A stretch of 64,000 nt of DNA from an uncultured Trueperaceae bacterium (GCA_963815215.1 CAWFFU010000010.1:1-64000), one strand, 5' to 3'. Positions 994-47,948 are shown, counted from the first letter of the stretch. Notes: a model not told the origin generated them from the letters alone. Numbers and translations are program-made.

Positions 994-1068
994 GGGCGGT
1001 TAGCTCAGCGGAAGAGCACTCGCTTCACACGCGAGGGGTCGTAGGTTCAAATCCTATACCGCCCACCA
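994..1068 (+). tRNA. tRNA-Val (anticodon CAC), CCA encoded
   Basis: GGGCGGT/ACCGCCC acceptor stem, TAGCTCAG D-arm start, CTCGC-TTCACAC-GCGAG anticodon arm, GGTTCAAATCC T-loop, ACCA end; 75 nt. Confidence 0.97.
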
Positions 1069-1092
1069 CAGAGATAGCGTCACAGACGCAAC

Positions 1093-1128
1093 CGCCGTCG
1101 GCTCTGATTCGGAGTCGGCGGCGTTCTT
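1093..1128 (+). terminator. Hairpin terminator-like element after the tRNA (type-A right flank)
   Basis: CGCCGTCGGCTC...GAGTCGGCGGCG stem followed by TTCTT; homologous hairpins at 10088, 14716, 47847. Confidence 0.65.
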
Positions 1129-1232
1129 GGCGGAAGTGGCAGCCGATCGGAGACGAGGCAACGCCCGGTGCGACCTTCGCTCCGGGCGTTCTAGCTGGGG
1201 CCGGCGGCTGGCGGCGAGCGGGTGCCGGTGAG

Positions 1233-1457
1233 CTATGCGTCGTCATTCAGGCTGCGCCGGGCCGTCGCTGGGGTGGTGGGTTTCGCGGTAGCGAAGCGCC
1301 GTACGAAGGCGGCCATTGCGGTCGAGAATCCACGTCGCACGCTGCTGGGGGCGTTGTGCCGGGTGGCGGTGCGCGCCAGCTGTTCCCGCGCTGCGGTCCG
1401 CGTCAGGTCGTTGCGTCGGTACGTGGCGATCTGTCTTGCACTCCATGCGCTCTTCAT
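1233..1457 (-). CDS. Small hypothetical protein (74 aa), divergent from the XRE-ATPase regulator
   Basis: ORF MKSAWSARQIATYRRNDL... with RBS AAGGAGAGGAAGG. Confidence 0.5.
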   Translation of the reverse strand: MKSAWSARQIATYRRNDLTRTAAREQLARTATRHNAPSSVRRGFSTAMAAFVRRFATAKPTTPATARRSLNDDA

Positions 1458-1631
1458 CTTTGGCCTTCCTCTCCTTCACGAGTGCTGCTCGCGATGCAGT
1501 CATTTCAGCGTGTGGGAGGCGCCTTCGGGTCGCCCTGGTCGTGACCGCAGGGGAGACAGCGAGGGTGACAGGCGGTGCTACAATCGCGCCCGTAGGCTCC
1601 AGAAAGGCATCCGGGGGAGGGATGGGTACGC

Positions 1632-4600
1632 GTGGACACGCCCAGCGAGGACGCTCTGTTCGGCCCTTGGTTGCGGCGTCGGCGGAAGGTCCTCGATCTG
1701 ACGCAGAAGGAGCTCGCGCGTCGCGTGGGGTGCTCCCCCGCGACGATCCGTAAGGTCGAGGCTGACGACCGTCATCCCTCGCGTCATCTGGCGCGCGTGT
1801 TGGCGGGTGTGTTGGGGGTTCCGGAGCCGGAGCTCGAGGCGTTCGTCCGCTTCGCGCGTGGCGGCTGGGCGGATCGTCCGCCGACCAGCGCAGTGCCGGA
1901 CTTCGATCGCCCTTGGCTCGGCGGGGCGATGTCCGGTGAGGTGCCCCTGACTGCGGCGGAACCGGCAAACGGGACGCCGGAGGATGAGGCGGAGCACGTT
2001 CCTGAGGCGCCGCGCATCGTAGCTCGCGAGCGTGAGTTGGAGCGCCTCGATCGGGAGCTGGAGCATGCGCTTGGCGGCAACGGCCGCGTCGTGCTCGTCT
2101 CCGGTCAGCCGGGGCAGGGCAAGACGGCGTTGATGACAGCGTTCGCGGCGCGGGCGCAGGCCGCGCACCCGGAGTTGCTGGTGGCGGTGGGGACCTGCAA
2201 CGCGTACACGGGGCGTGGCGATCCGTTCCTGCCGTTCCGTCAGATCTTGGCGCAGTTCACGGGTGAGGTGCCCGCGGGCTCGCATCTCGATGCGTTCCAG
2301 CGCGAGCGCGCCGCGCGCCTGACGCGTGCGGTGCCCAGAGCGGCCGACATCCTCGTGCGCAAGGGGCCTCACCTGCTCGACAGCCTGGTGCCTGTGGCGG
2401 CACTGGGCGCGCGCATGCAGCAGGCTGGCGTTGCTCTGCCTCCGCTGCCCGCTACCGCTGGCTCGATGCCGGGTGCGGCGAGCATGGTGCAGCCGGGGGG
2501 CGAGAATCAGCGAGCGTTGCGTTCCGAGACCGCCGCCACCCTGGCGGCCCTGGCCGAGGACGCTCCGTTGTTGTTGGTGCTCGATGACCTGCACTGGTTG
2601 GACGACAGCTCCGCGGAGCTGTTGTTGCATCTGACTTCGGTGGTTGCGGGGCACCGTGTGCTGGTGTTGGGGGCATTCCGGCCTGCAGACCTGCAGATGT
2701 CCGGCTCAAGCGGGGCCCGCGTGTCGCATCCTCTGGTCGAGCTGGCGCAGTCGGGCGCGACCACGATCGACGTGGGTCGCAGCGACGGTCGAGCCTTCGT
2801 GGATTCCTGGGTCGACCGCGAAGCGAACGCGCTCGATGAGGACTTCCGTGCTGCCCTGGTGCGGCAGACGGGTGGGCATCCGCTGTTCACGATCGAGTTG
2901 CTAAGGGCCATGCGGGAGCGGGGGGATCTCGTCAAGGACGAGGCGGGCCGGTGGTCGGCCGCGCCGGACCTGCACTGGAATCAGGTACCGGACCGGATCG
3001 CCGACGCTCTGGCGGCGCGGGTCGGGCGTCTCGATGCCGCTGCCCGGGACGTCTTGAGGGTGGCGAGCGTGGAGGGTGAAGTGTTCACGGCGGAGGTGGC
3101 CGCCAGGCTGTTGGGGCTGGAACCGCGGCAGGCGGTCGCTTCGCTGGGTTCGGTGCTCGATCGCGGTCACCGCCTGGTGGCGGCGGTGGACGTGCAACGC
3201 GTCGCGGGCGGCCTCGTCTCTCGTTACGCCTTCCGGCACAACCTGATCCAGCGCTACGTCTACGACACCATCGATGTCGGCGAACGGGCGTACCTGCATG
3301 AAGGTGTCGCCTCTGCGCTGGAGGCGGTGTTCGGGGACGACGCCGATCCCGTGGCGCTCGCCTACCACTACACGCAGGCGCGGTCGCCGGAGAGGGCGGC
3401 GCGTCACTACCGGAAGGCGGGGGACCGGGCGCGCAGGGCTCACGCCATCGGTCAGGCGATCGCTTACTACCAGGCCGCGCTCGAGCACTGGCCCGAGGAG
3501 GAGCCCCTCGCGCGAGCGGCCCTCCTGCGTGATCTCGGCGAGTGTCAAGTCATCCGGGGTTGGGAGGAGGACGCCGGGCGCAGCCTCAACGAGGCCCGCG
3601 ACCTGTTCGAGGCGGCGGGTGACGTGCGGCAGGTGGGGCACGCGGACCGCTACCTCGCCCAGCTCGCCATCGGTCGCGGGGACGTGGCAGGTGCGGCCGC
3701 TGCTGCTCGTCGCGCCGTCGCCATGCTGGAACCGTTGGGCGACTCCGCCGAACTGGCGAGCGCCTTGTTCGTCAGAGGCTACTGCCACGTGCTCGTAGCG
3801 GAGTGGGAGGAGGCGGTGCCGTTGGCCGAGCGCGCCCTGGCCATGGCCGAGCGTGTGGACGCCCCCGCTGTTCTGGCCGAAGCCATGCTCTGCCTGGGCA
3901 GCGCCCTGGGCTACCTGGACCCGCACCGTTTCGACGAGAGCGTAGCGCTCCTCGAGCGCAGCAGCGAACTCTCCGACGAACAGGGCAACCCGATGATCGC
4001 GAGTCTCGCGCGACTCAATCTGGGGTATCATCTCGCGAGGATCGGGCGATACCGGGAGGTCCGCCTTAGCTGGGAAGCGGCCCTCGAGTACGCTCGTCGC
4101 CACCAGGCCACCACGTTCGAGACCTACGCGCTGGAGTGTCTCTGTTCGTACGCGTGGCGCCACGGCGACTGGTCGCGGGCCTTCGAGCTTTGGCGGCAGC
4201 TCCTCCAGCGCCGCGATGGCGTGGACCCTTCGGAGCACGACGGGCTGTTCGCGGATCAGGGGGTGATGTTCGCCGCGTTCGAGGCGGACCTGGGGAACCA
4301 CGATCGCGCTCTGGCCATGCTGGGGGCGCGCGACGACGCGCTTCGGCGTTTGCCCCGGGTCGGCTATCGCCTCCCCGCACTTGCCGTCTACCTTCGTGCC
4401 CATGTGGGTCTGGGCCGGAGCGACGAAGCGGATCGAGACGCCGAGGCGATCGCCGATGCCCTCGCTCCGGCGCTCTTGCCCAGTGCCAACATCACGGCCG
4501 TGTTGGAGGCGCTGCAGCACCTGGTGCAGCGGAGTCGCGAGGACGCCGGTCCCCGCATCACGACCTGCTTGCAGGTCCTGGAGCGCTTCGCGCGGCACTT

Positions 4601-4922
4601 CGAGTCGTCCCAGGCGAACGCCTCCCTCGAGGAAGCGCGGGCTCTGGTGGCAGCGTCGGCCGGCGCGTTCGAAGAGTCCGCGGACCGCAACCTCGCCGCC
4701 GCGGATGCGTGGCAGGCCGGCACCTTCCCCCTCTGGGAAGCGAGGGCTCGCGTCGCGGCCGCGCACGCCTTGCGGCGCCTTGGCCGCGAGGACGAAGTCG
4801 AGAGCCTTCTGGAGCGCGCGCGGGAACTTCTTTCGGGCCTCGCCGGGCAGATCCCCGATGACGAGCGCCGGGCCTCGTTCGCGCGCGTCATTGAAGCCAT
4901 GCTCGCGGCAAGTGCGGCCTGA
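1632..4922 (+). CDS. XRE-HTH + AAA/STAND ATPase + TPR transcriptional regulator
   Basis: N-terminal LRRRRKVLDLTQKELARRVGCSPATIRKVE (HTH-XRE), Walker A GQPGQGKT, Walker B LLLVLDDLHWLD, C-terminal TPR-like helices. Confidence 0.9.
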   Translation: MDTPSEDALFGPWLRRRRKVLDLTQKELARRVGCSPATIRKVEADDRHPSRHLARVLAGVLGVPEPELEAFVRFARGGWADRPPTSAVPDFDRPWLGGAMSGEVPLTAAEPANGTPEDEAEHVPEAPRIVARERELERLDRELEHALGGNGRVVLVSGQPGQGKTALMTAFAARAQAAHPELLVAVGTCNAYTGRGDPFLPFRQILAQFTGEVPAGSHLDAFQRERAARLTRAVPRAADILVRKGPHLLDSLVPVAALGARMQQAGVALPPLPATAGSMPGAASMVQPGGENQRALRSETAATLAALAEDAPLLLVLDDLHWLDDSSAELLLHLTSVVAGHRVLVLGAFRPADLQMSGSSGARVSHPLVELAQSGATTIDVGRSDGRAFVDSWVDREANALDEDFRAALVRQTGGHPLFTIELLRAMRERGDLVKDEAGRWSAAPDLHWNQVPDRIADALAARVGRLDAAARDVLRVASVEGEVFTAEVAARLLGLEPRQAVASLGSVLDRGHRLVAAVDVQRVAGGLVSRYAFRHNLIQRYVYDTIDVGERAYLHEGVASALEAVFGDDADPVALAYHYTQARSPERAARHYRKAGDRARRAHAIGQAIAYYQAALEHWPEEEPLARAALLRDLGECQVIRGWEEDAGRSLNEARDLFEAAGDVRQVGHADRYLAQLAIGRGDVAGAAAAARRAVAMLEPLGDSAELASALFVRGYCHVLVAEWEEAVPLAERALAMAERVDAPAVLAEAMLCLGSALGYLDPHRFDESVALLERSSELSDEQGNPMIASLARLNLGYHLARIGRYREVRLSWEAALEYARRHQATTFETYALECLCSYAWRHGDWSRAFELWRQLLQRRDGVDPSEHDGLFADQGVMFAAFEADLGNHDRALAMLGARDDALRRLPRVGYRLPALAVYLRAHVGLGRSDEADRDAEAIADALAPALLPSANITAVLEALQHLVQRSREDAGPRITTCLQVLERFARHFESSQANASLEEARALVAASAGAFEESADRNLAAADAWQAGTFPLWEARARVAAAHALRRLGREDEVESLLERARELLSGLAGQIPDDERRASFARVIEAMLAASAA

Positions 4923-4971
4923 CAGGACTCGGGCTCGAACGCCAAGGCGGCGGCAAGCGCGAGCTGCCATG

Positions 4972-4992
4972 TGACAGCCAATGGACAGCCAA
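4972..4992 (+). repeat. Putative integrase arm-type site (tandem 11-bp-period repeat), 136 bp before att copy 2
   Basis: TGACAGCCAATGGACAGCCAA; near-identical at 10132, 14511, 26623, 47891. Confidence 0.7.
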
Positions 4993-5107
4993 GCCCGAGA
5001 TTCGGGACGGTAGCGAGCGGTACGGCGCAACGGCGTAGTGTCGAGTGATGGCGTGAGGGACGCCAATGTGGGATGTGCCGTGATGAGCCAGGACGGCTCC
5101 AGCGCAG

Positions 5108-5153
5108 TTCACACGCGAGGGGGTCACTGGTTCAACTCCAGTACCGCCCACCA
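5108..5153 (+). repeat. att copy 2: tRNA-Val 3' half with variant T-stem
   Basis: TTCACACGCGAGGGGGTCACTGGTTCAACTCCAGTACCGCCCACCA; no tRNA 5' half upstream. Confidence 0.9.
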
Positions 5154-5431
5154 CGACTAGGCCCCGTCCGTGACAGTTGGCATCATCCGCCGCACGCGAG
5201 CACGTGCAACGCAGTCGATCCGAACCTCGGGGGCGTCGCACGTTCGTGTGCGGGACCGACCGCCGGCGGAAGCGCATGGGGGTCGTAGGGGCCGATGCCT
5301 CCCCGCAAAGATCTCGGCCCGGCGCACGGCTCAAACGTGCGCCGCCGAACTGGCGTGCGTGGAACACGGTGGCAGCCCATCCAGATACGCCGAGGGCGGA
5401 TGTGCTGTCACGTCCGATCGTGCCCGCGTCT

Positions 5432-5779
5432 TCATTGCCGTCCGCGACGGTACTCGACCAGCTTCACGACGTCCACGGCGAACGCGCTGAGGGCCACACT
5501 CGCGAAGAGCAGGGCCGCCAGCCAGACGTGCGGCGCCTCCAGCAGAACCAGGACGAACACGCCGAGCACCAGCACCGTCATGACACGGTAGCCAACACGC
5601 TCGGCGCGCCGAGCGATGCGCTCGTCGTGGGCCGTCCGCTGGAGACTCTGTGCGACCGTGCGGCCGCCAGCCAGGGTCGCGAGGATGGAACTGCCGATGG
5701 CGGTAGTGACGGCGCCTACGACCGTGAGGCCGATCCACGCTAGCGCTCGGAACCACGTGAGCTTCTCCTCGAACGACAT
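5432..5779 (-). CDS. Small membrane protein (DUF2178-like)
   Basis: MSFEEKLTW..., three hydrophobic segments, HDERIARRA motif, RBS AGAAGGA. Confidence 0.6.
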   Translation of the reverse strand: MSFEEKLTWFRALAWIGLTVVGAVTTAIGSSILATLAGGRTVAQSLQRTAHDERIARRAERVGYRVMTVLVLGVFVLVLLEAPHVWLAALLFASVALSAFAVDVVKLVEYRRGRQ

Positions 5780-5954
5780 GACGGTGGTCCTTCTGTGGTT
5801 CGGTTCCTGTCCGGCGGCCGGATGCGGGACAGAGGCCGAGGTCGGGCGCCCAGCCATCGTGCGAACGGTGGCAGCCATGCGGCCACCGTTCGCAGTGCGG
5901 ACGTGTGGGGCGGGTCGGGATGGCGTGCTGCCGATTCCCGTTTCGGGTAGGGGC

Positions 5955-6647
5955 TCAGGGCCTGCTGGGGACTGCAACGGGGCGGGCCTCGCGGGCCGCT
6001 TCGGCACCCCGTGCCAGCACGACGCCCAGCCACGTGAACCACACGATCTGCCCCAGCCCGAACACGAGGCCTACGGGCTCGAGAGCCGGAAGCAGCGTGA
6101 CCAGGCCGGCTGCGCCGACCACGACGCCCACCAGGTTGAGCGCACGTGGCAACGCACGCTGGCGCAGGGCTGCCACGCTCACGAGGAGCGTCCAAAGGCC
6201 CCCGACGAGCTCGTTGCCGCCGCCAAGGCCGTTCTGTACCGCCGCGATGGCCGTCCAGGCGGCGCCTGCAGCGGTCGGGTCGGTGCCGTGCAGATCGACG
6301 ACGGCCGCCGTGCCAACGTTGAAGATCATGCCGCTCGCGAGCACGAGCCCGGCCCAGAGCAGCCCGAAAGCGGTGGCGACGCGCGCGAGATCCGGCGATG
6401 CCGGGCGGATACGCTCGTGCAGCGCCAGGCTCAACACGACGAGCGCGATGCCGAACAGGATCAGGATGACCTGGTTCCACAAGTAGATCGTCGCGCGGTG
6501 CTCGGCGAAGAACGCGACGGTCTGGACGGGGTCCAACGCGCCGGTCATGTAGGGCGCCAGGACACTGAAGCCGAGCGCGATTCCGAAGGTATAGGCGGCG
6601 GCCTCGAACAGGGCGGCGTAGCCGCCCCAGCTCTGCAATCGGTTCAT
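5955..6647 (-). CDS. DUF4386-family membrane protein
   Basis: MNRLQSWGGYAALFEAAAY..., GLGGGNELVGGLW motif, several TM helices, RBS GAGGAGGAG. Confidence 0.8.
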   Translation of the reverse strand: MNRLQSWGGYAALFEAAAYTFGIALGFSVLAPYMTGALDPVQTVAFFAEHRATIYLWNQVILILFGIALVVLSLALHERIRPASPDLARVATAFGLLWAGLVLASGMIFNVGTAAVVDLHGTDPTAAGAAWTAIAAVQNGLGGGNELVGGLWTLLVSVAALRQRALPRALNLVGVVVGAAGLVTLLPALEPVGLVFGLGQIVWFTWLGVVLARGAEAAREARPVAVPSRP

Positions 6648-6741
6648 GGGGCTCCTCCTCGGGGAAGCAGCGGAGCGCCAAGGCGCTCCTGCAAGGCGTG
6701 CGGTCGGGGCGCAGCGCGCCCGTCGGCCGTGGGACTGTGCG

Positions 6742-7005
6742 TCACCTCCGATCTTCGTCGCCGGGCGGTCCGGGAGCGCTATCCGGCTCTGCGACGGCGC
6801 CATCGGTGCGGACGACCGACAGGAGCGGAGCGCCCAGGTCCCGGACCCGATTCAACACGCCGTAGAGCGCGGCCTGGTCGGGCACGTCGACGGTGAAGGT
6901 CGTGGTTCCGTTCGCCTCGCGCACGAGCCGGGCTGCGCCGAATGCGCGGGCCCAGACGTCGTCGAGGTGGCCGCGGACCCGCATGAGGTAGGTCATGGCT
7001 TCCAC
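6742..7005 (-). CDS. Conserved small ACT-like protein typical of MalT/LuxR loci
   Basis: RVRGHLDDVWA...PDQAALYGVLNRVRDLGAPLLSV signature. Confidence 0.8.
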   Translation of the reverse strand: MEAMTYLMRVRGHLDDVWARAFGAARLVREANGTTTFTVDVPDQAALYGVLNRVRDLGAPLLSVVRTDGAVAEPDSAPGPPGDEDRR

Positions 7006-7071
7006 CGCCCGGCGGTTGCGCTCGCAGCTGTCATGTCCGTGAGCGTAGAGCCGTGCCGGTGTTCCCGGGTA

Positions 7072-7085
7072 GACACGAAAGTGTC
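7072..7085. promoter_or_regulatory. Palindrome, possible operator of the MalT-like regulator
   Basis: GACAC-GAAA-GTGTC between the regulator and its downstream genes. Confidence 0.35.
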
Positions 7086-7171
7086 GTTCGGGGGGTGTTG
7101 GTGGGACGTGGAGGCGCTGGGCCGGCCGTGGCGACGCACGCGCTGCAGCGTGGATACGCGCGTCTGGAAGC

Positions 7172-9922
7172 CTAGGAAAGCAGCCCGAGCTCCCGTGCGA
7201 GGGCCACCGCCTCGGTGCGGTTGCGGGCGCCGAGCTTCGCGAAGATGCGCCGGTTGTGCCCCTTGACGGTGTCGACGGAGCGGTAGAGGCGCATCCCGAT
7301 CTCGCGGTTCGAGAGGCCGTCGGCGAGGAGGTGGAGCACCTCGACCTCGCGTCGGCTCAGGGGCTCGGCCGGCTCCGCAAGGGGCGCACGGGGTGCCGAT
7401 GTCGCGGCGCTTGTGCCGGGGCGAACCGGGCTCGGTTCCCGACCGGTGGCCCTGACCGCGTCGAACGCGGCCCGCACGTAGGCGCCTTGGCCCGCGTCCT
7501 CTCCGAGCAGTTGCACCAGGCGGCGCATCGGCGTGCCCTCGTCTGGGAAGCGTTGCAGCCAGCCATCGGGAGCGGCCGCCCGCAACGCCTGCCCGAGCGC
7601 CTCCAGCGCGCCCGTCAGCTCGCCGCGCGCCTCGCGCGCGAGGGCCTGCACGATGCGCACGTCGATTGCGCTGGCGGTGCGTGCGGCGTCCTCGGCCGCG
7701 CGGAGCAGCCGGTCGAGCAGCACGTCGGTGCCGGTCAGCAGGTCGGGGTCGGCTGCTGCGCGCGCCTCGGCGATACGAAGGCGCGCGAGCGTGAGGTGCT
7801 CGTATTCCGTCAAGTAGGACGGCTCCTCTTCGTCGCTCAGGCCGCGCGTCTCGGCCCAGGCAGCGGCAGATCGCAGGTTGCCCTCCGCCAGACGCAGGCG
7901 GGCCCGCCACGCGGCGAACGGCCGCACGTCGGGGATGGGATGGCGTGTCTGCCGCTTCTCGGCGTCGTCGAGCACGGCGATGGCGCCGGCGAGGTCGCCG
8001 TTGGATTGACGGAAGCGCGCGCGGGCAGACGCCCAGCGCCGCAGCCACGGTGGGAAGGCCGGCAACTCGCCCAGCGCCTCGGCCCGTGCAAGGTGATGCT
8101 GTGCCTCGTCCTGGACGCCGCGTTCGACCAGGAGTTCGCTCAGTCCGAGGTGAAGCACCGCACGCTCGCGTAGCTCGGGGCCACCGGCTTGCTTCACCCG
8201 CTCGAGCGTCTCGCGGTAGGTCCGGATGCCTTCGGTCAGTCGACCCTGCGCCACGAGGATGTCGACGAGGTACGTCGTGAAGCTGCTGACGAATCTCAAG
8301 TTGCCGCTACGCCACATGCCGGCGACGGCCTCGCCCGCGGCTTCGCGTGCCGGTTCGAGTTCGCCTTCCGCCCAACGGGCGAAGGCGAGCATGAGTGCTG
8401 CCAGCGCACGCTCGAAGTCGTCGCGCTCGCGCGACAGCTCGTAGGCGCGTTCGGCTTCCGCGAGCGCCTTCGGCCCGTAGCGTCCCAGGCCCTGCAGACC
8501 GTAGGCCCGTGCGTTCGCGAGGGTCGCCGGCAGGACCTCGTACTCCGGCTCGTTCGTCACGACCATCCCCTGCGCTTCGCGCTCTTGCTCCTCGATGCCC
8601 AGCCAGCGCTCCGCCTCGTACACCCAGTCGAGTGCCGGCTCGAGATCCCCTTCGTTGAGAAGGGCCCAGGCATGCGCGGCGCACAGGACGGGGCGGGCCC
8701 GCACGGTCGACTCCGGCAGTTCGCGCACCCATTGCAGCCACGCCCGGGACCGGTAGCTGCGGTCCATGTCGCGCCAGACGGTCTCGAGGAGTGCTGCGGC
8801 GCGCCCGTGCGCGCCGGCGGCGAGCGCATGCTCGATGGCCTCGGCCGCCATGCCGCACTGCTCGAACCAACGGCTGGCCCGCTCGTGCAAGGTCGGCACG
8901 ACCTCGCCCATCTCCTGCTCCAGGTGTGCCCGAAGCACATCCCGGAACAGGTGGTGGTAGCGGTACCAGAGCCGATGATCGTCGAGTTGAACGACGAAGA
9001 GGTTGTCCCGTTCGAGGGTCTCGAGCAGTGCGCCGCTTCCCTCGCGGTCGGTGACGGCGTCGCACACGTCGCTGCCGAGCCGGTCCAGGATCGAGGTCTG
9101 GAGCAGGAAGATGCGCTGATCGTGGGGCTGGCGCCGCAGCACCTCGTCGACGAGGTAGTCGAAGACGAAGCGGTGGCTGCCGGTGAATGCGGCCACGAAG
9201 GCACTTGTGTCCTCCCTGCCACGCATCGAGAGCGCTGCCATCTGCAGGCCCGCGATCCATCCTTCGGTGCGGCTCTCGAGCGCGTCGACCTCGGCCTCCG
9301 ACAGGTGAAGGCCCATGACGTGTGTGAGGAACTCGGCGGCCTCGGCCGCATCGAAGCGCAGGTCGGCGGCCCGCACCTCCGAGAGCTGTCCGCGTGCGCG
9401 GAGGCGCGCCAGGGGCAGGCGCGGGTCCTGGCGCGTGGCGATCACGAGGTGAAGTGTGGGCGGGTGGTGCTCGAGCACGAACGTGAGCGCCTCGTCCACC
9501 GCCGGTGCGTTGAGGCTGTGGTAGTCGTCGAGCACCACCGTGATGGGGCGCGCCATACGGTCGATGTCATTGAGCAGTGGCGTCAGCGTGCCCGGCTCAG
9601 GGACCGGGGGTGGCCCCTGCCGGGCCGCGGAGACGTTCGCCCCGAGTGCTGGGTCCACCGTTTGCAGCGCCGCCACGAGGTACGCCATGAACCGCCCGGG
9701 TTCGCTGTCGGCCTCGTCGAGCGATACCCATGCCACAGGCCGTTCTAGCGTGGCGACCCACTCTGCCACGAGCGTCGTCTTACCGAATCCCGCGGGCGCC
9801 GAGACCAACGTGAGCGCGCGCTCCAACCCGCGATCGAGTTGTTCGAGGAGGCGCTTCCGGGCGACGATCTGGTGCCGCCGGTGCGGCACGTACAGCTTCG
9901 TCCCGAGGAGGGGCGCCCGCAT
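7172..9922 (-). CDS. MalT-like ATP-dependent LuxR-family regulator
   Basis: LLGTKLYVP start, Walker A SAPAGFGKTT, LDDYH, WYRYHHLF, C-terminal LuxR HTH LSRREVEVLHLLADGLSNREIG; start reassigned to ATG 9922. Confidence 0.92.
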   Translation of the reverse strand: MRAPLLGTKLYVPHRRHQIVARKRLLEQLDRGLERALTLVSAPAGFGKTTLVAEWVATLERPVAWVSLDEADSEPGRFMAYLVAALQTVDPALGANVSAARQGPPPVPEPGTLTPLLNDIDRMARPITVVLDDYHSLNAPAVDEALTFVLEHHPPTLHLVIATRQDPRLPLARLRARGQLSEVRAADLRFDAAEAAEFLTHVMGLHLSEAEVDALESRTEGWIAGLQMAALSMRGREDTSAFVAAFTGSHRFVFDYLVDEVLRRQPHDQRIFLLQTSILDRLGSDVCDAVTDREGSGALLETLERDNLFVVQLDDHRLWYRYHHLFRDVLRAHLEQEMGEVVPTLHERASRWFEQCGMAAEAIEHALAAGAHGRAAALLETVWRDMDRSYRSRAWLQWVRELPESTVRARPVLCAAHAWALLNEGDLEPALDWVYEAERWLGIEEQEREAQGMVVTNEPEYEVLPATLANARAYGLQGLGRYGPKALAEAERAYELSRERDDFERALAALMLAFARWAEGELEPAREAAGEAVAGMWRSGNLRFVSSFTTYLVDILVAQGRLTEGIRTYRETLERVKQAGGPELRERAVLHLGLSELLVERGVQDEAQHHLARAEALGELPAFPPWLRRWASARARFRQSNGDLAGAIAVLDDAEKRQTRHPIPDVRPFAAWRARLRLAEGNLRSAAAWAETRGLSDEEEPSYLTEYEHLTLARLRIAEARAAADPDLLTGTDVLLDRLLRAAEDAARTASAIDVRIVQALAREARGELTGALEALGQALRAAAPDGWLQRFPDEGTPMRRLVQLLGEDAGQGAYVRAAFDAVRATGREPSPVRPGTSAATSAPRAPLAEPAEPLSRREVEVLHLLADGLSNREIGMRLYRSVDTVKGHNRRIFAKLGARNRTEAVALARELGLLS

Positions 9923-10018
9923 GACTCCAATCATAGACGGGGGAAGTTCCCGTCGTCTGCACCGGTGTGGTCGCACCCTCGGGAAGATCGCCGACCCTTC
10001 GGGATGCAACCGATGGGT

Positions 10019-10063
10019 TTCACACGCGAGGGGTCGTAGGTTCAAATCCTATACCGCCCACCA
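10019..10063 (+). repeat. att copy 3: tRNA-Val 3' half
   Basis: 45 nt identical to 1024-1068. Confidence 0.95.
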
Positions 10064-10190
10064 TGGAGATAGCGTCACAGACGCGAACGCCGTCACCTTG
10101 TCGATTAAGGTGGCGGCGACTTGTCTTCAAATGACAGCCAATAGACAGCCAATCTCGGAGGGAATCTACGATTACTGCCACGGCCCACCG
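10064..10190 (+). repeat. Type-A right flank (hairpin 10088-10118, arm-type repeat 10132-10152)
   Basis: Aligns with 1069-1150, 14692-14766 and 47823-47948. Confidence 0.8.
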
Positions 10191-10482
10191 AGGCGAGCGC
10201 AGTTGGGGTCGAGCCTGGCGGGAGATCCTGGCACCGGAGCTTGCCTTGAGGTCATCGAAGTGCGGCCGTCCCGGCCCGCGAAGTGGGGCGTGTGCATTCC
10301 GCTCTGTAGGCAACTGCTTGTTGTGACGAAGCTCGGAGCAACAGGTACCGGCGCAGCGTCACAGTGGGTATCGTCAGGCATCTTGCGGAGCGCCGACCTG
10401 CCAACTAGGGCATGGGGGAACTCGATACACCTGTCGAGGGCCTGCACACGCCGCCCCGCGAAGTGTGACTGTGAAGGACGCC

Positions 10483-10917
10483 ATGGCGTTAAAGAAATCC
10501 CAGCTCTACAGCTCACTCTGGAGCAGCTGCGACGAACTCCGCGGAGGCATGGACGCTTCCCAATACAAGGACTACGTCCTCACGCTCCTCTTCATGAAGT
10601 ACGTCAGCGACAAGTACGCCGGCAAGCCCGACGCTCTCATCGAGGTGCCGGCCGGCGGCAGATTCGACGACATGGCGAAGCTGAAGGGCGACAAGGAGAT
10701 CGGCGACAAGATCAACAAGATCATCGCCCGCTTCGCCGAAGCCAACGACCTGCGAGGCGTCATCGACCAAGCCGACTTCAAGGATGAGGGCAAGCTTGGC
10801 TCCGGCAAGGAGATGCAAGACCGCCTTTCCAGACTCGTCGCCATCTTTGACGGGCTCGATTTCCGCGCCAACCGCGCCGACGGCGACGACTGCCTGCGAC
10901 AACGTGAGGGAAGCTAG
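10483..10917 (+). pseudogene. hsdM: Type I restriction-modification methyltransferase subunit, N-terminal fragment
   Basis: MALKKSQLYSSLWSSCDELRGGMDASQYKDYVL... is the HsdM N-terminal domain; similarity ends after NRADGDD, no SAM-binding domain. Confidence 0.88.
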
Positions 10918-11113
10918 TGCGCTACGAGGTGCTGTGGGCCAGGACGGCGAGGGGCCAGTTCGCACCGAGTTGCACGCGTCACCGCGTGCGCCGGACTTCA
11001 CGCAAGTGGGGACGGGCTCGTTGACCTCTGGATGGCCGTCGACAGCTCGTTCGGACTTGGTTGAGGCACTCCGTTCGCTGGCCGCTGTTGCGGAGTCGCC
11101 TTAACTGGTTCTC

Positions 11114-13630: not shown

Positions 13631-13805
13631 CACCGTCTTACGGGCACCCTGCGCATGACCAAGGCGCCGCATGAGATCCGCCTGTGTGGCGTCGGCTTAC
13701 ACCGGGACGGGTGAGCGAAGCACGAGTGTCATGCCCTTCGGCCGTCAGCAAGTGGCCTGAAGTGACAACGAGGGACCCTTGCTTGCTGCGCGCGAGAATT
13801 GACCT

Positions 13806-14027
13806 GTGAACGTCCTGTTGATCCTGAACGATCCGCCCTACGGAACGGAGCGCTCCTACAGCGGTCTGCGTCTAGCGCTGCAACTAGGCAAGTAGGACGC
13901 CGTGCGGGTCCGAGTGTTCCTGATGGCCGATGCGGTGGGATGCGCCTGCGCCGGCTAGAAGACTCCCACCGATTACTACAACATGGAGCGCACGCTGCGT
14001 TGTGTGGTGAAGCGGGGCGGCGCGTAG
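13806..14027 (+). pseudogene. DsrE/YchN-family protein remnant
   Basis: Hand translation VNVLLILNDPPYGTERSYSGLRLA...RVFLMADAVGCACAG*KTP..YYNMER; in-frame TAG at 13893 and 13956; truncated. Confidence 0.75.
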
Positions 14028-14311
14028 CTTCTCTCGCAACAACTCTTGGCCGGGCCAGCCGTGTCCGTCGTTGTCGAGGTAGCGGCGGCCTGCCATTCGT
14101 GCCGGACCGTGGTAGCCCTCGAGGTCGCGGCCGTCGATGCGGATGGTGGGTGATCCCGCGAAGCCAGCCTTGTCCGCGCCGGTGAGGTCGGCGATGTCGC
14201 GCAGCCGTACGTTGGTCTCGATCACTTGCTGCATCAGAGCGTGCCCCAGCTCGACCAGGCGCGCTCCCAGGAGGGGCAGCCAGCGAAGTACAGCAGCTCG
14301 ACCTCGAGCAC
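14020..14311 (-). pseudogene. Thioredoxin-fold protein remnant (frameshifted)
   Basis: EVELLYFAGCPSW in one frame and GFAGSPTIRIDGRD in another. Confidence 0.6.
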
Positions 14312-14510
14312 GCCCCAGCCTGCGTCCTCGCCGGGTGGGCGGGGGTGTCCGATCTTCCCTGGATGAAGGGCACTGTTTCTTGGGTAAGGGCGGGTTGTGA
14401 CGGCGAACCGGGGAGCCGCTTGGGATGGGGGCGTAGTGGTGCTGAAGCGCCTTCGGTCTTGACGCCGTGGCCCGGCGTTTGTAGGCGGCGGCAGCCCCAA
14501 CTCGGAGATT

Positions 14511-14531
14511 TGACAGCCAATTGACAGCCAA
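14511..14531 (+). repeat. Putative arm-type site, 136 bp before att copy 4
   Basis: TGACAGCCAATTGACAGCCAA. Confidence 0.7.
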
Positions 14532-14646
14532 GCCCGCGGATTGTGGTGGGGTACGAGCGAACGTAGCGGGACGGAGCCGGTTAGGTGTGGCGTTTGGCAC
14601 GCGAATTCGGTAAGTGGCGGCATGAGGCGTGATGGGCAGCGGGCAG

Positions 14647-14691
14647 TTCGCACGCGAGGGGGCGTAGGTTCGAATCCTATACCGCCCACCA
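14647..14691 (+). repeat. att copy 4: tRNA-Val 3' half
   Basis: TTCGCACGCGAGGGGGCGTAGGTTCGAATCCTATACCGCCCACCA, 3 mismatches to the tRNA; followed by type-A right flank. Confidence 0.93.
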
Positions 14692-14766
14692 CAGAGATAG
14701 CATCACAGACGCGAACGCCGTCACCTCGTCGATTGAGGTGGCGGCGACTTGTCTTCAATCGACAGC

Positions 14767-14835
14767 TTGGCCTCGAACGGTCGCTGCAACACTTCATGAT
14801 GGACTCTCTTAGGCGCGGGAGGGGGCGGTGGTGCG
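14767..14835 (+). mobile_element. IS30-family left-end remnant
   Basis: GGTCGCTGCAACACTTCATGATGGACTCTC...AGGGGGCGGT matches 19879-19930, which precedes an IS30-like transposase N-terminus. Confidence 0.6.
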
Positions 14836-14893
14836 TTGAGATGGCTTGGGCTGCGGGGCTTGCGCTATGATCGCAGCACGCTGGCGGAAATAT

Positions 14894-15271
14894 ATGCCTG
14901 CGACTTCGGCGCCGGCCACGATCAACGAGTACGTCGCCGGTTTCCCTCCAGGCGTGCGGGAGAAGCTCGAGGCGGTGCGGCGAACGGTCCACGAGGCCGC
15001 GCCGGACGCAGAAGAGACCATCAAGTACGGCATGCCTTCTTTCGTGCTATCTGGCATCCTGGTGCACTTCGGGGCCTTCAAGACGCACCTGGGCTTCTAC
15101 TCGGTGCCCTCGGAGCTCGCCCCTGAGCTCGCCGCGTACAAGCAGGGACGGGGTTCGGTGCGGTTCCCGTTTGACCGGCCTCTGCAGCTGGAACTTATCT
15201 CTCGCATCGTGCAGGTCCGGGCAGAGCAGAACCTCGCCAGGGCGAAGACAAAGGGAAGACGCCCTCGTTGA
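14894..15271 (+). CDS. DUF1801 (YdhG-like) protein
   Basis: TINEYVAGFP...APDAEETIKYGMPSF...HFGAFKTHLGFY...GRGSVRFP. Confidence 0.85.
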   Translation: MPATSAPATINEYVAGFPPGVREKLEAVRRTVHEAAPDAEETIKYGMPSFVLSGILVHFGAFKTHLGFYSVPSELAPELAAYKQGRGSVRFPFDRPLQLELISRIVQVRAEQNLARAKTKGRRPR

Positions 15272-15419
15272 GAGACGCGCAATCTGGAGGATTGTCAGGA
15301 CGCTGGCGATGACCGTGCGATGAGGCTCTTGCCGCACCGTTGCCTCGCCGTTCCTGCCCGTGGCTTGAACTGGCCCGGGCAATCCGTGAACGGCGGCCCA
15401 TGCCGTCGGCAACCAATCG

Positions 15420-19775: not shown

Positions 19776-19864
19776 GTACCGACCACCCACATCGACCTGC
19801 ACAGAGACCTGCACAAAGGCATCGACCACACCATAAGCCGTAAGCACAGAACGCCCGCCAAGGA

Positions 19865-26622: not shown

Positions 26623-26643
26623 TGACAGCTAATCGACAGCCAA
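26623..26643 (+). repeat. Putative arm-type site, 136 bp before att copy 5
   Basis: TGACAGCTAATCGACAGCCAA. Confidence 0.7.
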
Positions 26644-26758
26644 CCCAGCGTCGTCGGATGGATACGGGCAGCACGTGGTGGGATGGTGAAGACCGGGGGT
26701 AGCGTAAGGGACGCTATTCCGGGACGTGCCGCCACGACTGGGGAGGGCTCCAGTGCAG

Positions 26759-26803
26759 TGCACACGCGAGGGGTCGTAGGTTCAAATCCTATACCGCCCA
26801 CCA
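26759..26803 (+). repeat. att copy 5: tRNA-Val 3' half
   Basis: TGCACACGCGAGGGGTCGTAGGTTCAAATCCTATACCGCCCACCA, 1 mismatch; type-B right flank TCGAAAGAGGCGTGCAG. Confidence 0.95.
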
Positions 26804-32866: not shown

Positions 32867-33556
32867 ATGGCGAAGACACCCGAGAACCCCATCAGGCGAT
32901 CCTCTACACGCAGTGAACAGGCTGAGGCACGGCGCCAGCAGATCGTTGACGCCGCGCTCGAGCTCTTCGCGCAGCAGGGCTACTCCGCCACGACGACCAA
33001 GAGCATCGCTCAGGCGGTCGGAGTCACAGAGGGGCTGATCTTCCACTACTTCCCCACCAAGGGCGATCTCCTCCGCGTGGCCGCAGGCCAGCGGTCGATG
33101 TTCGTCCGGGAGGTACACGATCTCCTCGACGGCGCCACCGGCCGGCCGGCCCGTGACGTCCTGGGCGGCATCATCCTGGGCTGGGTGGCGGCGATCCGTC
33201 ACCAGGAGAGCCTGGTGACGATGCTCCTGGTGGAGTCGCAGTCGAATGATGAGCTGGGGCAAGCGTTCAGGGGTGTCGTCGGAGACCTCGTGGAGGCCAC
33301 GGCAAGGTATCTCCGGGCCCGGGTCGAGGCGGGTGAGCTTCGGGAGGATCTACCCACCAACACCAGCGCCATGCTGTTCTTCTCCTCCTTGATGATGTTC
33401 TTCCTGGCGAACCGGCATCTCGAGCCGGACGTCTGGCGTCGGCAAGCCACCCGCTTCACGTCGGAGATGCTCGACACCTGGTTCCGTGGGGCGCTTGCCC
33501 CTGGGAGCCACGTCGCCCACCCGACCATCGCAGCCGACTCGCAGGGAGGCGGATAG
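32867..33556 (+). CDS. TetR/AcrR-family regulator
   Basis: RRQQIVDAALELFAQQGYSATTTKSIAQAVGVTEGLIFHYFPTKGDLL. Confidence 0.92.
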   Translation: MAKTPENPIRRSSTRSEQAEARRQQIVDAALELFAQQGYSATTTKSIAQAVGVTEGLIFHYFPTKGDLLRVAAGQRSMFVREVHDLLDGATGRPARDVLGGIILGWVAAIRHQESLVTMLLVESQSNDELGQAFRGVVGDLVEATARYLRARVEAGELREDLPTNTSAMLFFSSLMMFFLANRHLEPDVWRRQATRFTSEMLDTWFRGALAPGSHVAHPTIAADSQGGG

Positions 33557-46675: not shown

Positions 46676-47521
46676 ATGGCGCACGCCAGCGACGACAACC
46701 GTGTCCCCCTGGAGCCGTACCGTGTGGTGCCCGGCGGAGCCCCTGCGCTACGGGAGCGCGACGCCGGGGACACCGGCCCGTTCGACTCCGACCACGACGG
46801 CAAGAAGCTCGGGAAGCGTCGCCGCAAGGCTCTTCGCAAGCGGCTCGCAGCGCTGCAGCGATTGTTCTATGCCGACGGCCGTTATTCGGTGCTCGTGGTG
46901 CTGCAGGCCATGGACACCGGGGGCAAGGACAGCACCGTCCGCCGCGTGTTCCACGGCGTCAACCCGCAGGGGGTCGACGTCACCAGCTTCAAGGCGCCGA
47001 CCTCCGAGGAGCTGGCGCACGACTTCCTGTGGCGCGTGCACCGTCACGCACCGGCGGCAGGCCGCATCGCGGTGTTCAACCGCTCGCACTACGAGGACGT
47101 GCTGGTGGCGCGGGTCGAGGGGCTGGTGCCGGAAGCGGTGTGGCGGCCGCGCTACCAGATCATCCGCGAGTTCGAGGCCGCGCTCGCGGAAGCCGGCACG
47201 GTCGTCTGCAAGTTCTTCCTGCACATCGATGCGGACGAGCAGAAGGAACGTTTGCAGGAGCGGCTGGACGATCCCGACAAACGCTGGAAGTTCGACGAGT
47301 CGGACCTCCGGGACCGGGCGCTGTGGGACGAGTACGTGGACGCCTACGAGGAGGCTCTGGCGCGCACCAGCACGGACCGGGCGGTCTGGACGGTGGTGCC
47401 CGCCAATCGTAAGTGGTTCCGGGACGTCGTGGTCCTCGAGACGCTCGTCGACGTCTTGGAGTCGCTGCAGCTCCGCTATCCGCCGCGGACCGGTGACCTA
47501 GAAGGCATCGTGGTGGAGTGA
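46676..47521 (+). CDS. ppk2: Polyphosphate kinase 2 family (class III-like)
   Basis: LQAMDTGGKDS, HDFLWR, FNRSHYEDVL, KFFLHI. Confidence 0.92.
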   Translation: MAHASDDNRVPLEPYRVVPGGAPALRERDAGDTGPFDSDHDGKKLGKRRRKALRKRLAALQRLFYADGRYSVLVVLQAMDTGGKDSTVRRVFHGVNPQGVDVTSFKAPTSEELAHDFLWRVHRHAPAAGRIAVFNRSHYEDVLVARVEGLVPEAVWRPRYQIIREFEAALAEAGTVVCKFFLHIDADEQKERLQERLDDPDKRWKFDESDLRDRALWDEYVDAYEEALARTSTDRAVWTVVPANRKWFRDVVVLETLVDVLESLQLRYPPRTGDLEGIVVE

Positions 47522-47540
47522 GTCGGTCGACCAACACGGC

Positions 47541-47620
47541 ATGGTCGAACTCGACTTCGTCCGGCCGCAGTTCCGACCCCTGGTGGGCGACTGGGTGTAC
47601 CTCGACAGGGTCACTGCGTC
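47541..47620 (+). pseudogene. Possible cysteine-desulfurase-like N-terminal remnant
   Basis: ELDFVRPQFRPLVGDWVYLD resembles class-V aminotransferase starts; very short. Confidence 0.35.
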
Positions 47621-47777
47621 GGCCGCCCTCTCGCGGCGACATGGAGCCTGTAGAACTACACCTCGACCGCGTGCGCCGGAGGGACCGCGGAGCGGCCCCT
47701 TCCCGATCGCTCTACCTCTGCGCGTCTTGGGCGACGGTTGGGATGCCAAGGGACGAGGCGGGAAGCGCCTAGGGCCA

Positions 47778-47822
47778 TGCACACGCGAGGGGTCACGGGT
47801 TCAAATCCAGTACCGCCCACCA
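47778..47822 (+). repeat. att copy 6: tRNA-Val 3' half with variant T-stem
   Basis: TGCACACGCGAGGGGTCACGGGTTCAAATCCAGTACCGCCCACCA. Confidence 0.9.
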
Positions 47823-47948
47823 CAGAGATGGCGTCACAGACGCGAACGCCGTCACCCCACCGATCGAGGTGGCGGCGCGTTGTCTTGGCGTGACAGGCAA
47901 TGGACAGCCCATCTCGCAGGGCATCCGCGACTACTGCCGCGGCCCACC
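47823..47948 (+). repeat. Type-A right flank (hairpin 47847-47877, arm-type repeat 47891-47911)
   Basis: About 125 bp colinear with 10064-10190. Confidence 0.8.

What the first reader, a model, noticed from the sequence alone, without database searches (positions are those of the whole stretch)
1024..47911. Invariant att geometry: tandem repeat at -136 and +113, hairpin at +69
Seen: TGACAGCCAATNGACAGCCAA (11-bp period, about one helical turn) starts exactly 136 bp before the anticodon loop at 4972/5108, 14511/14647 and 26623/26759, although the DNA between has diverged strongly. It starts exactly 113 bp after the loop at 10132/10019 and 47891/47778, with degenerate or truncated versions at 1137/1024 and 14760/14647. 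The hairpin starts at +69 in all four type-A right flanks. Established: lambda-family integrases need tandem arm-type sites at fixed phasing on both sides of the core. Inference: spacing kept while sequence drifts implies selection for recombination competence, at least while these elements were mobile.
Basis: partly seen in the sequence, partly recalled or inferred. Interest (0 to 1): 0.85.

Follow-up and report, generated by a model that had tools for sequence, protein, structure and literature searches.

The report
Integrase docking sites flanking tRNA-Val islets
The paired 11-base repeats beside each tRNA-Val fragment are most likely the docking ("arm-type") sites of a lambda-like integrase, left on a row of small gene islands that have lost their integrase genes; this is a known kind of mobile-DNA anatomy, seen here in a Trueperaceae bacterium.

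Summary
The tandem motif occurs 5 times in the window (0 expected) and only once more in the 3.3-Mb genome, again on an att-type arm. It starts 136 bp before the anticodon-loop position in 4 of 4 left arms and 113 bp after it in 2 right arms. A hairpin starts at +69 in 4 of 4 type-A right flanks.

The reading as integrase arm-type sites is well supported:
- The motif is 91% conserved where the gapless spacer is 59%.
- Elements in other genera and at other tRNAs of this genome keep the same geometry, each with its own 11-bp unit matched between its two arms.
- Intact relatives encode tyrosine integrases.

Three qualifications apply:
- No integrase or remnant lies in the window, so the islets look like CIME-type relics of serial integration.
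- The hairpin looks like the tRNA's terminator.
- A GCGT-N5-ACGC palindrome sits on both arms.

Pairs of 11-bp arm sites with a terminator beside the core are already described for mycobacteriophages (PMC3203893). This scan has noted similar integrase-less cassette rows on other DNA. New member of a known kind; moderate interest.

The parts
951..979 (+). promoter-like site (TTGACC-17-TAGACT) just upstream of tRNA-Val
   Evidence: the only promoter-like hit in 900-15000
994..1068 (+). intact tRNA-Val(CAC); anticodon loop starts at 1024. It serves as attL core/attB for the array
1077..1089 (.). P'-arm palindrome GCGT-N5-ACGC (start +53) of junction a1
1093..1123 (+). hairpin at +69 of junction a1 (terminator-like)
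1137..1157 (+). decayed P' tandem site of islet I1 (first unit 9/11, second lost)
4972..4992 (+). P-arm tandem arm-type site of islet I1 (0 mismatches), 136 bp before the loop position
5050..5064 (.). P-arm palindrome GGCGT-N5-ACGCC (start -58)
5108..5153 (+). tRNA-Val 3' fragment a2 (core copy; T-stem variant, one extra G)
10019..10063 (+). tRNA-Val 3' fragment a3 (core copy)
10072..10084 (.). P'-arm palindrome GCGT-N5-ACGC of a3
10088..10118 (+). hairpin at +69 of a3, 13-pair stem then ACTTGTCTTC; terminator-like
10132..10152 (+). P' tandem arm-type site of islet I3 (0 mismatches), +113
14511..14531 (+). P-arm tandem arm-type site of islet I3 (0 mismatches), -136
14647..14691 (+). tRNA-Val 3' fragment a4 (core copy), the only junction with both arm types
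14716..14746 (+). hairpin at +69 of a4; terminator-like
14760..14770 (+). single remaining P' unit of islet I4 (the other unit is missing as an 11-column gap)
26623..26643 (+). P-arm tandem arm-type site of islet I4 (1 mismatch), -136
26701..26715 (.). P-arm palindrome AGCGT-N5-ACGCT (compensatory change relative to a2)
26759..26803 (+). tRNA-Val 3' fragment a5 (core copy), followed by a type-B flank
47778..47822 (+). tRNA-Val 3' fragment a6 (core copy, one broken T-stem pair)
47831..47843 (.). P'-arm palindrome GCGT-N5-ACGC of a6
47847..47877 (+). hairpin at +69 of a6
47891..47911 (+). P' tandem arm-type site (2 mismatches), +113; its islet (I6) has no matching P arm
49605..49649 (+). tRNA-Val 3' fragment a7, last core copy; no motif on either side

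Best explanation
MAIN READING. The tandem TGACAGCCAAT units are arm-type binding sites of a heterobivalent (lambda/L5-class) tyrosine integrase whose core site is the anticodon-loop-to-3'-end part of tRNA-Val(CAC).

HOW THE ARRAY AROSE (inferred). Each integration put a P' arm to the right of a core copy and a P arm to the left of the next core copy. Serial integrations into the tRNA or into its fragments built the array.
- P' arm: GCGT-N5-ACGC palindrome at +53, hairpin at +69, tandem site at +113.
- P arm: tandem site at -136, palindrome at -58.

WHICH ISLETS. Islets I1 (1069-5107), I3 (10064-14646) and I4 (14692-26758) still carry both arms. I6 keeps only P'. I2 and I5 are bounded by other flank types.

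PRESENT STATE. All islets have lost the integrase gene, so they are CIME-like relics. The strong conservation of the sites dates from the time the elements were mobile, or reflects trans use.

OTHER ELEMENTS.
- Inferred: two integrase N-domains sit on the same DNA face (11-bp period) on each arm and bridge to the core.
- Inferred, weaker: the palindromes, equidistant from the anticodon loop, are sites for a bending or accessory factor.
- The hairpin is the terminator that the element supplies for the rebuilt tRNA gene.
For: SPECIFICITY. 5 copies in the window against 0 in shuffles. There are 6 in the whole genome, all on att-type arms. Only 2 of 201 sampled genomes of the order have the pattern: this one and a congener, where it lies at +115 after the intact tRNA-Val.

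CONSTRAINT. Among 4 left arms the 21-nt motif is 91% identical. The gapless 115-nt spacer is 59% (24-35% if shifted) and the 34 nt upstream are 29%. The one free position N takes G, A, T and C.

GEOMETRY SHARED WITH A CHANGING UNIT. Each element has one unit, matched between its two arms:
- G145: TGACGACAGTT at +109 and -128.
- G056: CGGCACCTTTT at +114 and -140, with a 393-aa tyrosine integrase in the element.
- This genome, Arg(ACG) element: TTGTGTC-type units at +112 and -150, intact integrase adjacent.
- This genome, Ala(TGC) element: CGGCTGCTTTT at +114 and about -140, beside Xis-like and frameshifted int genes.
P' repeats start at +109 to +116 in all of these, and also at Ala(GGC) and Pro(GGG).

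FAMILY-WIDE ENRICHMENT. 8 of 78 flanks of 39 distinct tRNA-Val junctions carry a tandem repeat matching at 9 of 10 positions or better at period 11. Only 22 of 2000 random windows do.

OTHER PHYLA. The exact motif lies within 250 bp of an intact tRNA gene in 9 of 72 loci: 0.25 per kb near the motif against 0.03 per kb elsewhere. An integrase is adjacent in L108 and L115.

INTEGRASE N-TERMINUS. The model has three strands plus a helix, pLDDT 84-91 over residues 11-60.

HAIRPIN. 12 pairs, 96.4% of cells paired, 3 pairs with compensatory changes, 0 of 500 shuffles reach this. The U-G pairs fit RNA of the tRNA strand. A terminator-like scan hits 2 of the 4 copies.

PUBLISHED PRECEDENT. Two pairs of 11-bp arm sites flanking the core, with a stem-loop terminator between the core and the right pair (PMC3203893, passages read).
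Against: - No integrase domain or remnant in 101 candidate ORFs of 1-52.5 kb, and no tblastn hit at E<=1 (5 integrase queries in all) inside the window.
- No integrase in the genome is linked to this exact site. The nearest is the tRNA-Ala(GGC) integrase, whose P' units are TTGACAGCAAT/TTGACATCAGT.
- The N-domain fold match is weak: Foldseek found nothing at E<=0.001, and VIA gave AP2 domains at Z 4.5-5.2, tied with unrelated folds.
- Two P' copies have decayed (1137, 14760).
- Homology of the left arms stops exactly at the motif in 4 of 4 copies, with unrelated cargo beyond. Random decay would not obviously produce that.
- Binding and recombination are untested.
Confidence: 0.82

Rival explanations
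1. The islets are not relics. They are integrase-less cassettes still moved in trans (or in cis) by an integrase encoded elsewhere, and present selection keeps the minimal arms intact.
For: - Three junction sites have 0 mismatches, and the left arms begin exactly at the motif with unrelated cargo beyond.
- An intact integrase of the same clade, with similar P' units, lies 327 kb away on the same contig.
- G259 has a cargo-less P'-P fusion after tRNA-Val.
- Islet content differs between metagenome populations: I1 is covered in 4 of 4 runs, I2-I3 are well covered in 2, and I4 in none.
Against: - No integrase with this arm site is found in a 97%-complete genome.
- I1 is shared in place with another species at 88% identity and its P' site decays in both.
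- No contig joint precisely removes an islet, though contigs cannot show rare forms.
Confidence: 0.2
2. The tandem motif is itself the crossover site of a cassette-exchange system. Cargo is swapped at the motif, and the tRNA fragment units are only spacers.
For: - Cargo is bounded by direct copies of the motif.
- Left-arm homology ends at the motif.
- In G259 the P' motif runs straight into the P spacer with no cargo.
Against: - In single islands (G145, G056) the flanking direct repeats are the tRNA 3' parts, as in classical integration, and an integrase is present in G056.
- Right-arm homology runs 37 nt past the motif in a3/a6.
- The sites are tandem direct repeats, not the inverted pair expected of a core.
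Confidence: 0.06
3. The repeats bind another protein (excisionase/RDF, a cargo regulator or a host factor) and not the integrase.
For: - Xis-type proteins also bind tandem direct repeats (recalled knowledge).
- An Xis-like HTH gene precedes the decayed int on C11.
Against: - The sites lie on both arms at near-symmetric distances.
- The unit changes with the element and integrase lineage, not with the cargo.
- The cargo next to the sites is unrelated in each copy.
Confidence: 0.08
4. There is no constraint. The copies are recent duplicates or homogenised by gene conversion, and the fixed spacing is simple descent.
For: All copies are homologous, and exact spacing is expected if no indel has happened since the copies arose.
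Against: - The spacer is 41% diverged while 20 of the 21 motif positions are almost unchanged.
- The free position differs in each copy, which argues against conversion.
- Unrelated units at the same offsets in other elements show a geometry rule.
Confidence: 0.03

Closest known systems
attP of Cluster K mycobacteriophages (CrimD and relatives), and of L5 and Giles, as described in PMC3203893 (passages read)
   Same: - Two pairs of 11-bp arm-type repeats, one pair on each side of a common core that overlaps a tRNA/tmRNA 3' part.
- A stem-loop terminator between the core and the right pair.
- The unit sequence differs between related integrases.
- In L5 and Giles the pairs are in direct orientation, as here.
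   Different: - Here no integrase gene remains, and the host is a Trueperaceae bacterium.
- An extra GCGT-N5-ACGC palindrome sits on both arms.
- In CrimD the right pair is inverted.
Bacteriophage lambda attP (P1, P2, P'1-3; IHF and Xis sites). Recalled knowledge; 240-bp assembly paper PMC4880445 seen in a search listing only
   Same: - Heterobivalent logic: arm sites distinct from the core sites, on both arms.
- An att region of about 250 bp.
- Accessory-factor sites between the arms and the core.
   Different: - Lambda's target is not a tRNA gene.
- Its P1 and P2 are not adjacent.
- The accessory sites here, if the palindromes are such, are dyad-symmetric and unidentified.
CIMEs and tandem accretion (ICESt1-type; review PMC5704250, passages read)
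   Same: - Elements that lost their integration genes but kept attL and attR.
- They are stacked in tandem at a tRNA-type target by later integrations.
   Different: - No integrase-bearing partner is present in the assembled array.
- No conjugation genes are present.
- Cis-mobilisation has not been shown.
Tycheposon-type tRNA islands of Prochlorococcus (bioRxiv 10.1101/2020.12.28.424599, passages read)
   Same: - Repeated integrations at one tRNA push older elements further into the island.
- Partial tRNAs and degenerate elements are scattered through the island.
   Different: - The word 'arm' does not occur in that main text.
- Relatedness of the integrases was not tested here.

Membership tests
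Arm-type sites of heterobivalent (lambda/L5/Tn916-class) tyrosine integrase att sites | Short repeated sites in the arms, different in sequence from the core | tested here: met
   An 11-bp unit repeated in tandem, unrelated to the tRNA core: 5 copies in the window, 0 expected
Arm-type sites of heterobivalent (lambda/L5/Tn916-class) tyrosine integrase att sites | Sites on both sides of the core, with the same unit on both arms of one element | tested here: met
   I3 has perfect sites at 10132 and 14511. Matched units in G145, G056 and in this genome's Arg(ACG) and Ala(TGC) elements
Arm-type sites of heterobivalent (lambda/L5/Tn916-class) tyrosine integrase att sites | Element flanked by direct copies of a core shared with the target (tRNA 3' part) | tested here: met
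   Seven core copies, one of them inside the intact tRNA
Arm-type sites of heterobivalent (lambda/L5/Tn916-class) tyrosine integrase att sites | Tyrosine integrase encoded by the element | tested here: not met
   None in the window (Pfam on 101 ORFs; tblastn with 5 integrases in all). Met in relatives: G056 (PF00589 at 8.8e-20), L108 and L115
Arm-type sites of heterobivalent (lambda/L5/Tn916-class) tyrosine integrase att sites | Integrase has a separate N-terminal arm-binding domain | tested here: inconclusive
   - Model of the N-terminus of this genome's clade integrase: 3 strands plus a helix, pLDDT 84-91.
- Pfam Arm-DNA-bind_4 at E=0.097, below cut-off.
- Foldseek: nothing at E<=0.001.
- VIA: AP2 domains at Z 4.5-5.2, tied with unrelated folds.
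Arm-type sites of heterobivalent (lambda/L5/Tn916-class) tyrosine integrase att sites | Sites are bound by the integrase and needed for recombination | not testable with these tools
   Needs EMSA or footprinting and recombination assays
CIME (cis-mobilizable element) in a tandem accretion | Has lost integration and transfer genes | tested here: met
CIME (cis-mobilizable element) in a tandem accretion | Retains attL and attR | tested here: met
   I3 and I4 keep both arms. I1 keeps P, and its P' has decayed. I6 keeps only P'. I2 and I5 do not have these arms
CIME (cis-mobilizable element) in a tandem accretion | Excises together with, or by means of, a neighbouring integrase-bearing element | not testable with these tools
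   No integrase-bearing neighbour in the assembled array. Laid contigs show no precise excision joint but cannot show rare forms
Intrinsic (Rho-independent) terminator, for the hairpin at +69 | G+C-rich stem-loop followed by a T-rich tract on the transcribed strand | tested here: met
   The scan flags 10088-10118 and 14716-14746. The a1 and a6 copies have the stem but were either not flagged or not scanned. Covariation: 3 pairs, 96.4% of cells paired
Intrinsic (Rho-independent) terminator, for the hairpin at +69 | Stops transcription | not testable with these tools
   No RNA run holds the stretch (0 rows on record as RNA)

The most novel reading that the evidence does not exclude
THE BLUEPRINT. 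The window would show one instance of a fixed attP layout used by a single integrase clade across at least five phyla and many tRNA species. Its parts, counted from the anticodon loop, are:
- a dyad-symmetric CGT-N5-ACG site about 55 bp out on each side;
- a tandem 11-bp arm pair about 125 bp out on each side;
- a terminator inside the P' arm.

THE ISLETS. In Trueperaceae, minimal arm-bounded, integrase-less cassettes would be kept exchangeable by a trans-acting integrase, so that tRNA-Val acts as a cassette rack for regulators and defence genes.
Probability: 0.22. Interest if true: 0.55.

Novelty: new member of a known kind. Interest (0 to 1): 0.35.

Why it matters
It gives a sequence-only rule for recognising att arms of decayed tRNA islands: a matched 11-bp pair at about -136 and +113, with a terminator and palindromes between. 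The rule separates the three true islets in this array from neighbouring segments, and it points to further relic elements at other tRNAs of the same genome.

If the islets are still mobilised in trans, the array would be a cassette system outside the classical integron. As it stands, this is ordinary lambda/L5-type anatomy in a little-studied phylum.

Tried and rejected
- KNOWN ncRNA IN THE ARMS. Rfam at gathering thresholds finds only the tRNA.
- INTEGRASE REMNANTS IN THE WINDOW. Pfam and tblastn with 5 integrases in all at E<=1 found none.
- COGNATE INTEGRASE NEXT TO A LEFT ARM IN CONGENERS. Arms were found in G262, G259 and G096, but no adjacent integrase. There is only an 80-aa fragment 3.6 kb away in G096.
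- FOLD OF THE N-DOMAIN. Foldseek against pdb gave nothing at E<=0.001. The VIA wide search gave only middling, tied scores.
- EXCISION OR CIRCLE JOINTS. I laid Logan contigs of 4 metagenome runs on 800-20700 and found no joint that precisely removes an islet.
  - The 5063-to-1027 'goes back' joint in X4 is compatible with a contig ending in the repeated core.
  - The 1020/5120 joint with 14 other letters looks like another organism's tRNA-Val.
  - Contigs cannot show rare forms, so this says nothing either way.
- C14 AS AN EMPTY SITE. The second tRNA-Val copy on C14 is only 97% (upstream) and 88% (type-B flank) like the window. It is therefore another strain or a paralogous locus, not an excision product.
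- LEFT FLANKS OF a3 AND a7 AS A SECOND ARM FAMILY. The local score is 18 against a null of 12.5 +/- 2.4, too weak to claim.
- GEOMETRY SCRIPT. One script was not run (see steps_to_tell). The measurement was redone.

Full report
WHAT IS THERE. The window is G000:C10:1-64000 of a 3.3-Mb, 70% G+C genome that is 97% complete. One intact tRNA-Val(CAC) lies at 994-1068, with a promoter-like site at 951-979. Six copies of its 3' part, from the first base of the anticodon loop to the 3' end (45-46 nt), follow at 5108, 10019, 14647, 26759, 47778 and 49605. I call the seven junctions a1-a7 and the segments between them I1-I6.

THE OBSERVATION. The tandem motif occurs five times, all on the + strand, with 0, 0, 0, 1 and 2 mismatches, against none in 100 shuffles. 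In the whole genome, allowing up to 4 substitutions, there is one more copy, at C11:170180 on the minus strand. Motif start to loop start is 136 bp at a2, a4, a5 and in the C11 copy. Loop start to motif start is 113 bp at a3 and a6. At a1 the first unit keeps 9 of 11 positions and the second is gone. At a4 one unit is missing as an 11-column gap. The hairpin begins at +69 in a1, a3, a4 and a6.

STRUCTURE OF THE ARRAY. Local alignment of the flanks (null 12.5 +/- 2.4) gives these groups:
- Left arms: one family, a2, a4 and a5 (scores 40-51).
- Right flanks, type A: a1, a3, a4 and a6 (28-80).
- Right flanks, type B: a5 with the C14 copy (40).
- The other flanks are unrelated to these.
So only I1, I3 and I4 are bounded by a type-A arm on the left and a motif arm on the right. 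I6 has only the type-A arm. I2 and I5 have neither.

No integrase domain appears in 101 composition-filtered ORFs of 1-52.5 kb. tblastn with five integrases in all at E<=1 gives no hit in the window. The cargo is regulators (HTH-AAA-TPR, MalT/LuxR, PAS-HD, MarR, TetR), an HsdM fragment, an ABC transporter, a beta-lactamase-family protein and others.

CONSTRAINT. Among the four left arms the 21-nt motif is 91% identical. The 115-nt spacer, aligned without gaps, is 59%, and 23-35% when shifted by 1-5 nt. The 34 nt upstream are 29%, which is random. The arms are therefore homologous over their full length, have taken no indel, and start at the motif. The single free position takes G, A, T and C in different copies. 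That argues against homogenisation by conversion and for selection on the other 20 positions.

COMPARATIVE TEST. Elements elsewhere keep the geometry but carry their own unit, matched between their two arms.
- G145 (another genus of the family): a 12-kb island at tRNA-Val carries TGACGACAGTT pairs at +109 and -128. Its cargo is type I restriction-modification and PIN toxins, with no integrase.
- G056: a 13-kb island carries CGGCACCTTTT pairs at +114 and -140, plus a 393-aa tyrosine integrase (PF00589 at 8.8e-20).
- This genome, tRNA-Arg(ACG): a 32-kb element (C11:169.5-201.4 kb) has an intact integrase and TTGTGTC-type pairs at +112 and -150.
- This genome, tRNA-Ala(TGC): an element split between the starts of C3 and C11 has CGGCTGCTTTT pairs at +114 and about -140, beside an Xis-like gene and a frameshifted integrase.
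- This genome, tRNA-Ala(GGC): TTGACAGCAAT/TTGACATCAGT at +112, next to an intact integrase.
- This genome, tRNA-Pro(GGG): a perfect pair at +112, with no integrase hit within 50 kb.
Five units are each matched within their own element. Neighbouring flanks that belong to different elements carry different units.

Across 39 distinct tRNA-Val junctions from family genomes, 8 of 78 flanks hold a tandem repeat matching at 9 of 10 positions or better at period 11, at +94 to +120 or -126 to -140. Only 22 of 2000 random windows do. One of the 39 junctions comes from G208, which is marked unpublished; it showed no repeat.

WIDER DISTRIBUTION. In 201 sampled genomes of the order, the pattern (up to 1 mismatch) is found only in this genome and in congener G115, where it follows the intact tRNA-Val. 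An exact scan of genome contigs gave 72 loci. My own rough expectation for 18 fixed bases in 596 Gb is about 17. Intact tRNA genes lie within 250 bp of the motif in 9 of the 72 loci (0.25 per kb near the motif, 0.03 per kb elsewhere). These are tRNAs SeC, Val(GAC), His, Ser, Lys and Gln. By record title the hosts are Acidobacteriota, Bacillota, Planctomycetota and Chloroflexota. Other loci show the left-arm layout followed by a tRNA fragment. An integrase abuts the motif in L108 and L115. The same arm word is thus used with many core specificities.

THE INTEGRASE. The G056 integrase matches Tn1549 Int and lambda Int from about residue 82 onward. The N-terminal 93 residues of this genome's clade integrase fold as three strands plus a helix (pLDDT 84-91 over residues 11-60). 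That fold class is known for arm-binding domains (recalled knowledge). The searches are inconclusive:
- Pfam Arm-DNA-bind_4 at E=0.097.
- Foldseek: nothing at E<=0.001.
- VIA: AP2 domains at Z 5.2, 4.9 and 4.5, among tied unrelated folds.

THE HAIRPIN. In seven type-A flanks (four from this window, three from congeners) a 12-pair stem is 96.4% paired, with three pairs changed on both sides. 0 of 500 shuffles reach this, and slid controls pair at 31-63%. Five U-G pairs fit RNA of the tRNA strand only. The terminator-like scan flags the a3 and a4 copies. I read the hairpin as the terminator that the element brings for the rebuilt tRNA gene. The same is drawn for Cluster K mycobacteriophage attP sites (PMC3203893, passages read).

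A FURTHER ELEMENT: A PALINDROME ON BOTH ARMS. A palindrome GCGT-N5-ACGC lies at -58 in the left arms of a2, a5 (with a compensatory change) and G262. It lies at +53 or +54 in the right arms of a1, a3, a6, G115 and G071. The same CGT-N5-ACG type sits at +52 to +54 at the Arg, Ala(GGC), Ala(TGC)-fragment, Pro(GGG) and Gly(GCC) loci. The midpoint of the two palindromes is +4, and that of the two tandem sites is -1.5, both at the anticodon loop (0 to 6). This fits a crossover in the anticodon loop and an accessory or bending factor, but that is inference only. Any perfect 5-bp inverted repeat occurs in 665 of 5000 random 35-bp windows, so the position and the type carry the argument, not mere presence.

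AGE AND MOBILITY.
- I1 is shared in place with congener G071 at 88% identity, and its P' site decays in both.
- The a5 junction is shared with G262 at 96-99% identity, but with a different left part of the arm.
- G259 has tRNA-Val, hairpin and motif running straight into the left-arm spacer, with no cargo, before its contig ends.
- Contigs of four metagenome runs cover I1 in all four, I2-I3 well in two, and I4 hardly at all. No joint precisely removes an islet, and contigs cannot show rare forms.
- C14 holds a second tRNA-Val locus (97% identical upstream) followed by a type-B flank.

VERDICT. The islets fit the published definition of CIMEs stacked by accretion (PMC5704250, passages read). 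They also resemble tRNA islands built by serial integration (bioRxiv 10.1101/2020.12.28.424599, passages read). Pairs of 11-bp arm sites with a terminator beside the core are in print. This scan has noted similar integrase-less cassette rows in other genomes (unchecked AI notes). I found no paper on such sites in Trueperaceae, but I ran no search for that. This is a new member of a known kind.

Noticed in passing
window 5050-5064, 26701-26715 (left arms); 1077-1089, 10072-10084, 47831-47843 (right arms): A 13-bp palindrome GCGT-N5-ACGC sits on both arms, equidistant from the anticodon loop. The same type lies 8-10 nt after the 3' end of tRNA-Ala(GGC), Arg(ACG), Pro(GGG) and Gly(GCC) of this genome. 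It is possibly an accessory-factor site.
   Followed up: partly
G000:C11:170045-170200 (minus strand): A sixth copy of the left arm (motif, 136-bp spacer) is followed by only about 17-19 bp of the Val core. Unrelated DNA follows, with its own tandem pair at +116. It lies about 500 bp from the P arm of the 32-kb tRNA-Arg element, and looks like a fossil of an att-module swap.
   Followed up: partly
G000:C14:79366-82111: A second intact tRNA-Val(CAC) has a 97% identical upstream flank but a type-B downstream flank, and 147-bp tandem repeats at the contig end. This is a strain variant or a paralogous locus.
   Followed up: partly
G000:C3 c281044-281120 (tRNA-Pro GGG): The same P' layout (palindrome at +53, perfect 11-bp pair at +112), with no integrase Pfam hit within 50 kb. 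Probably another relic element.
   Followed up: no
L131 (G259:C179) 3920-4289: tRNA-Val, hairpin and tandem motif continue directly into the left-arm spacer. This is a cargo-less P'-P unit, cut by the contig end.
   Followed up: partly
window 26860-26881: The type-B right flank of a5 also has a hairpin followed by a 12-bp-period tandem pair at +101. This suggests a second arm family. No matching left arm was found.
   Followed up: no
window 48389-49456: Eight copies of a 135-bp period repeat lie inside the NHL-repeat protein gene of islet I6 (48081-49418).
   Followed up: no
window 28734-28778 and 32952-32996: An exact 45-bp direct repeat in two TetR-type N-termini. The close relative G262 lacks the 4.2 kb between them.
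   Followed up: partly
window 489-497 (-) and 50506-50514 (-): Two more exact single 9-mers of the unit, in inverted orientation, lie outside the array (21 in the whole genome). Probably chance.
   Followed up: no
L006 (G115:C8) 10100-10500 in locus coordinates: Just after the right arm in the congener lies a dense field of short direct repeats (GACTTGTGGA-like and CCAGTAG-like). Next come TacA/GNAT, DUF2726 and MmeI-like genes. The repeats look like iterons.
   Followed up: no
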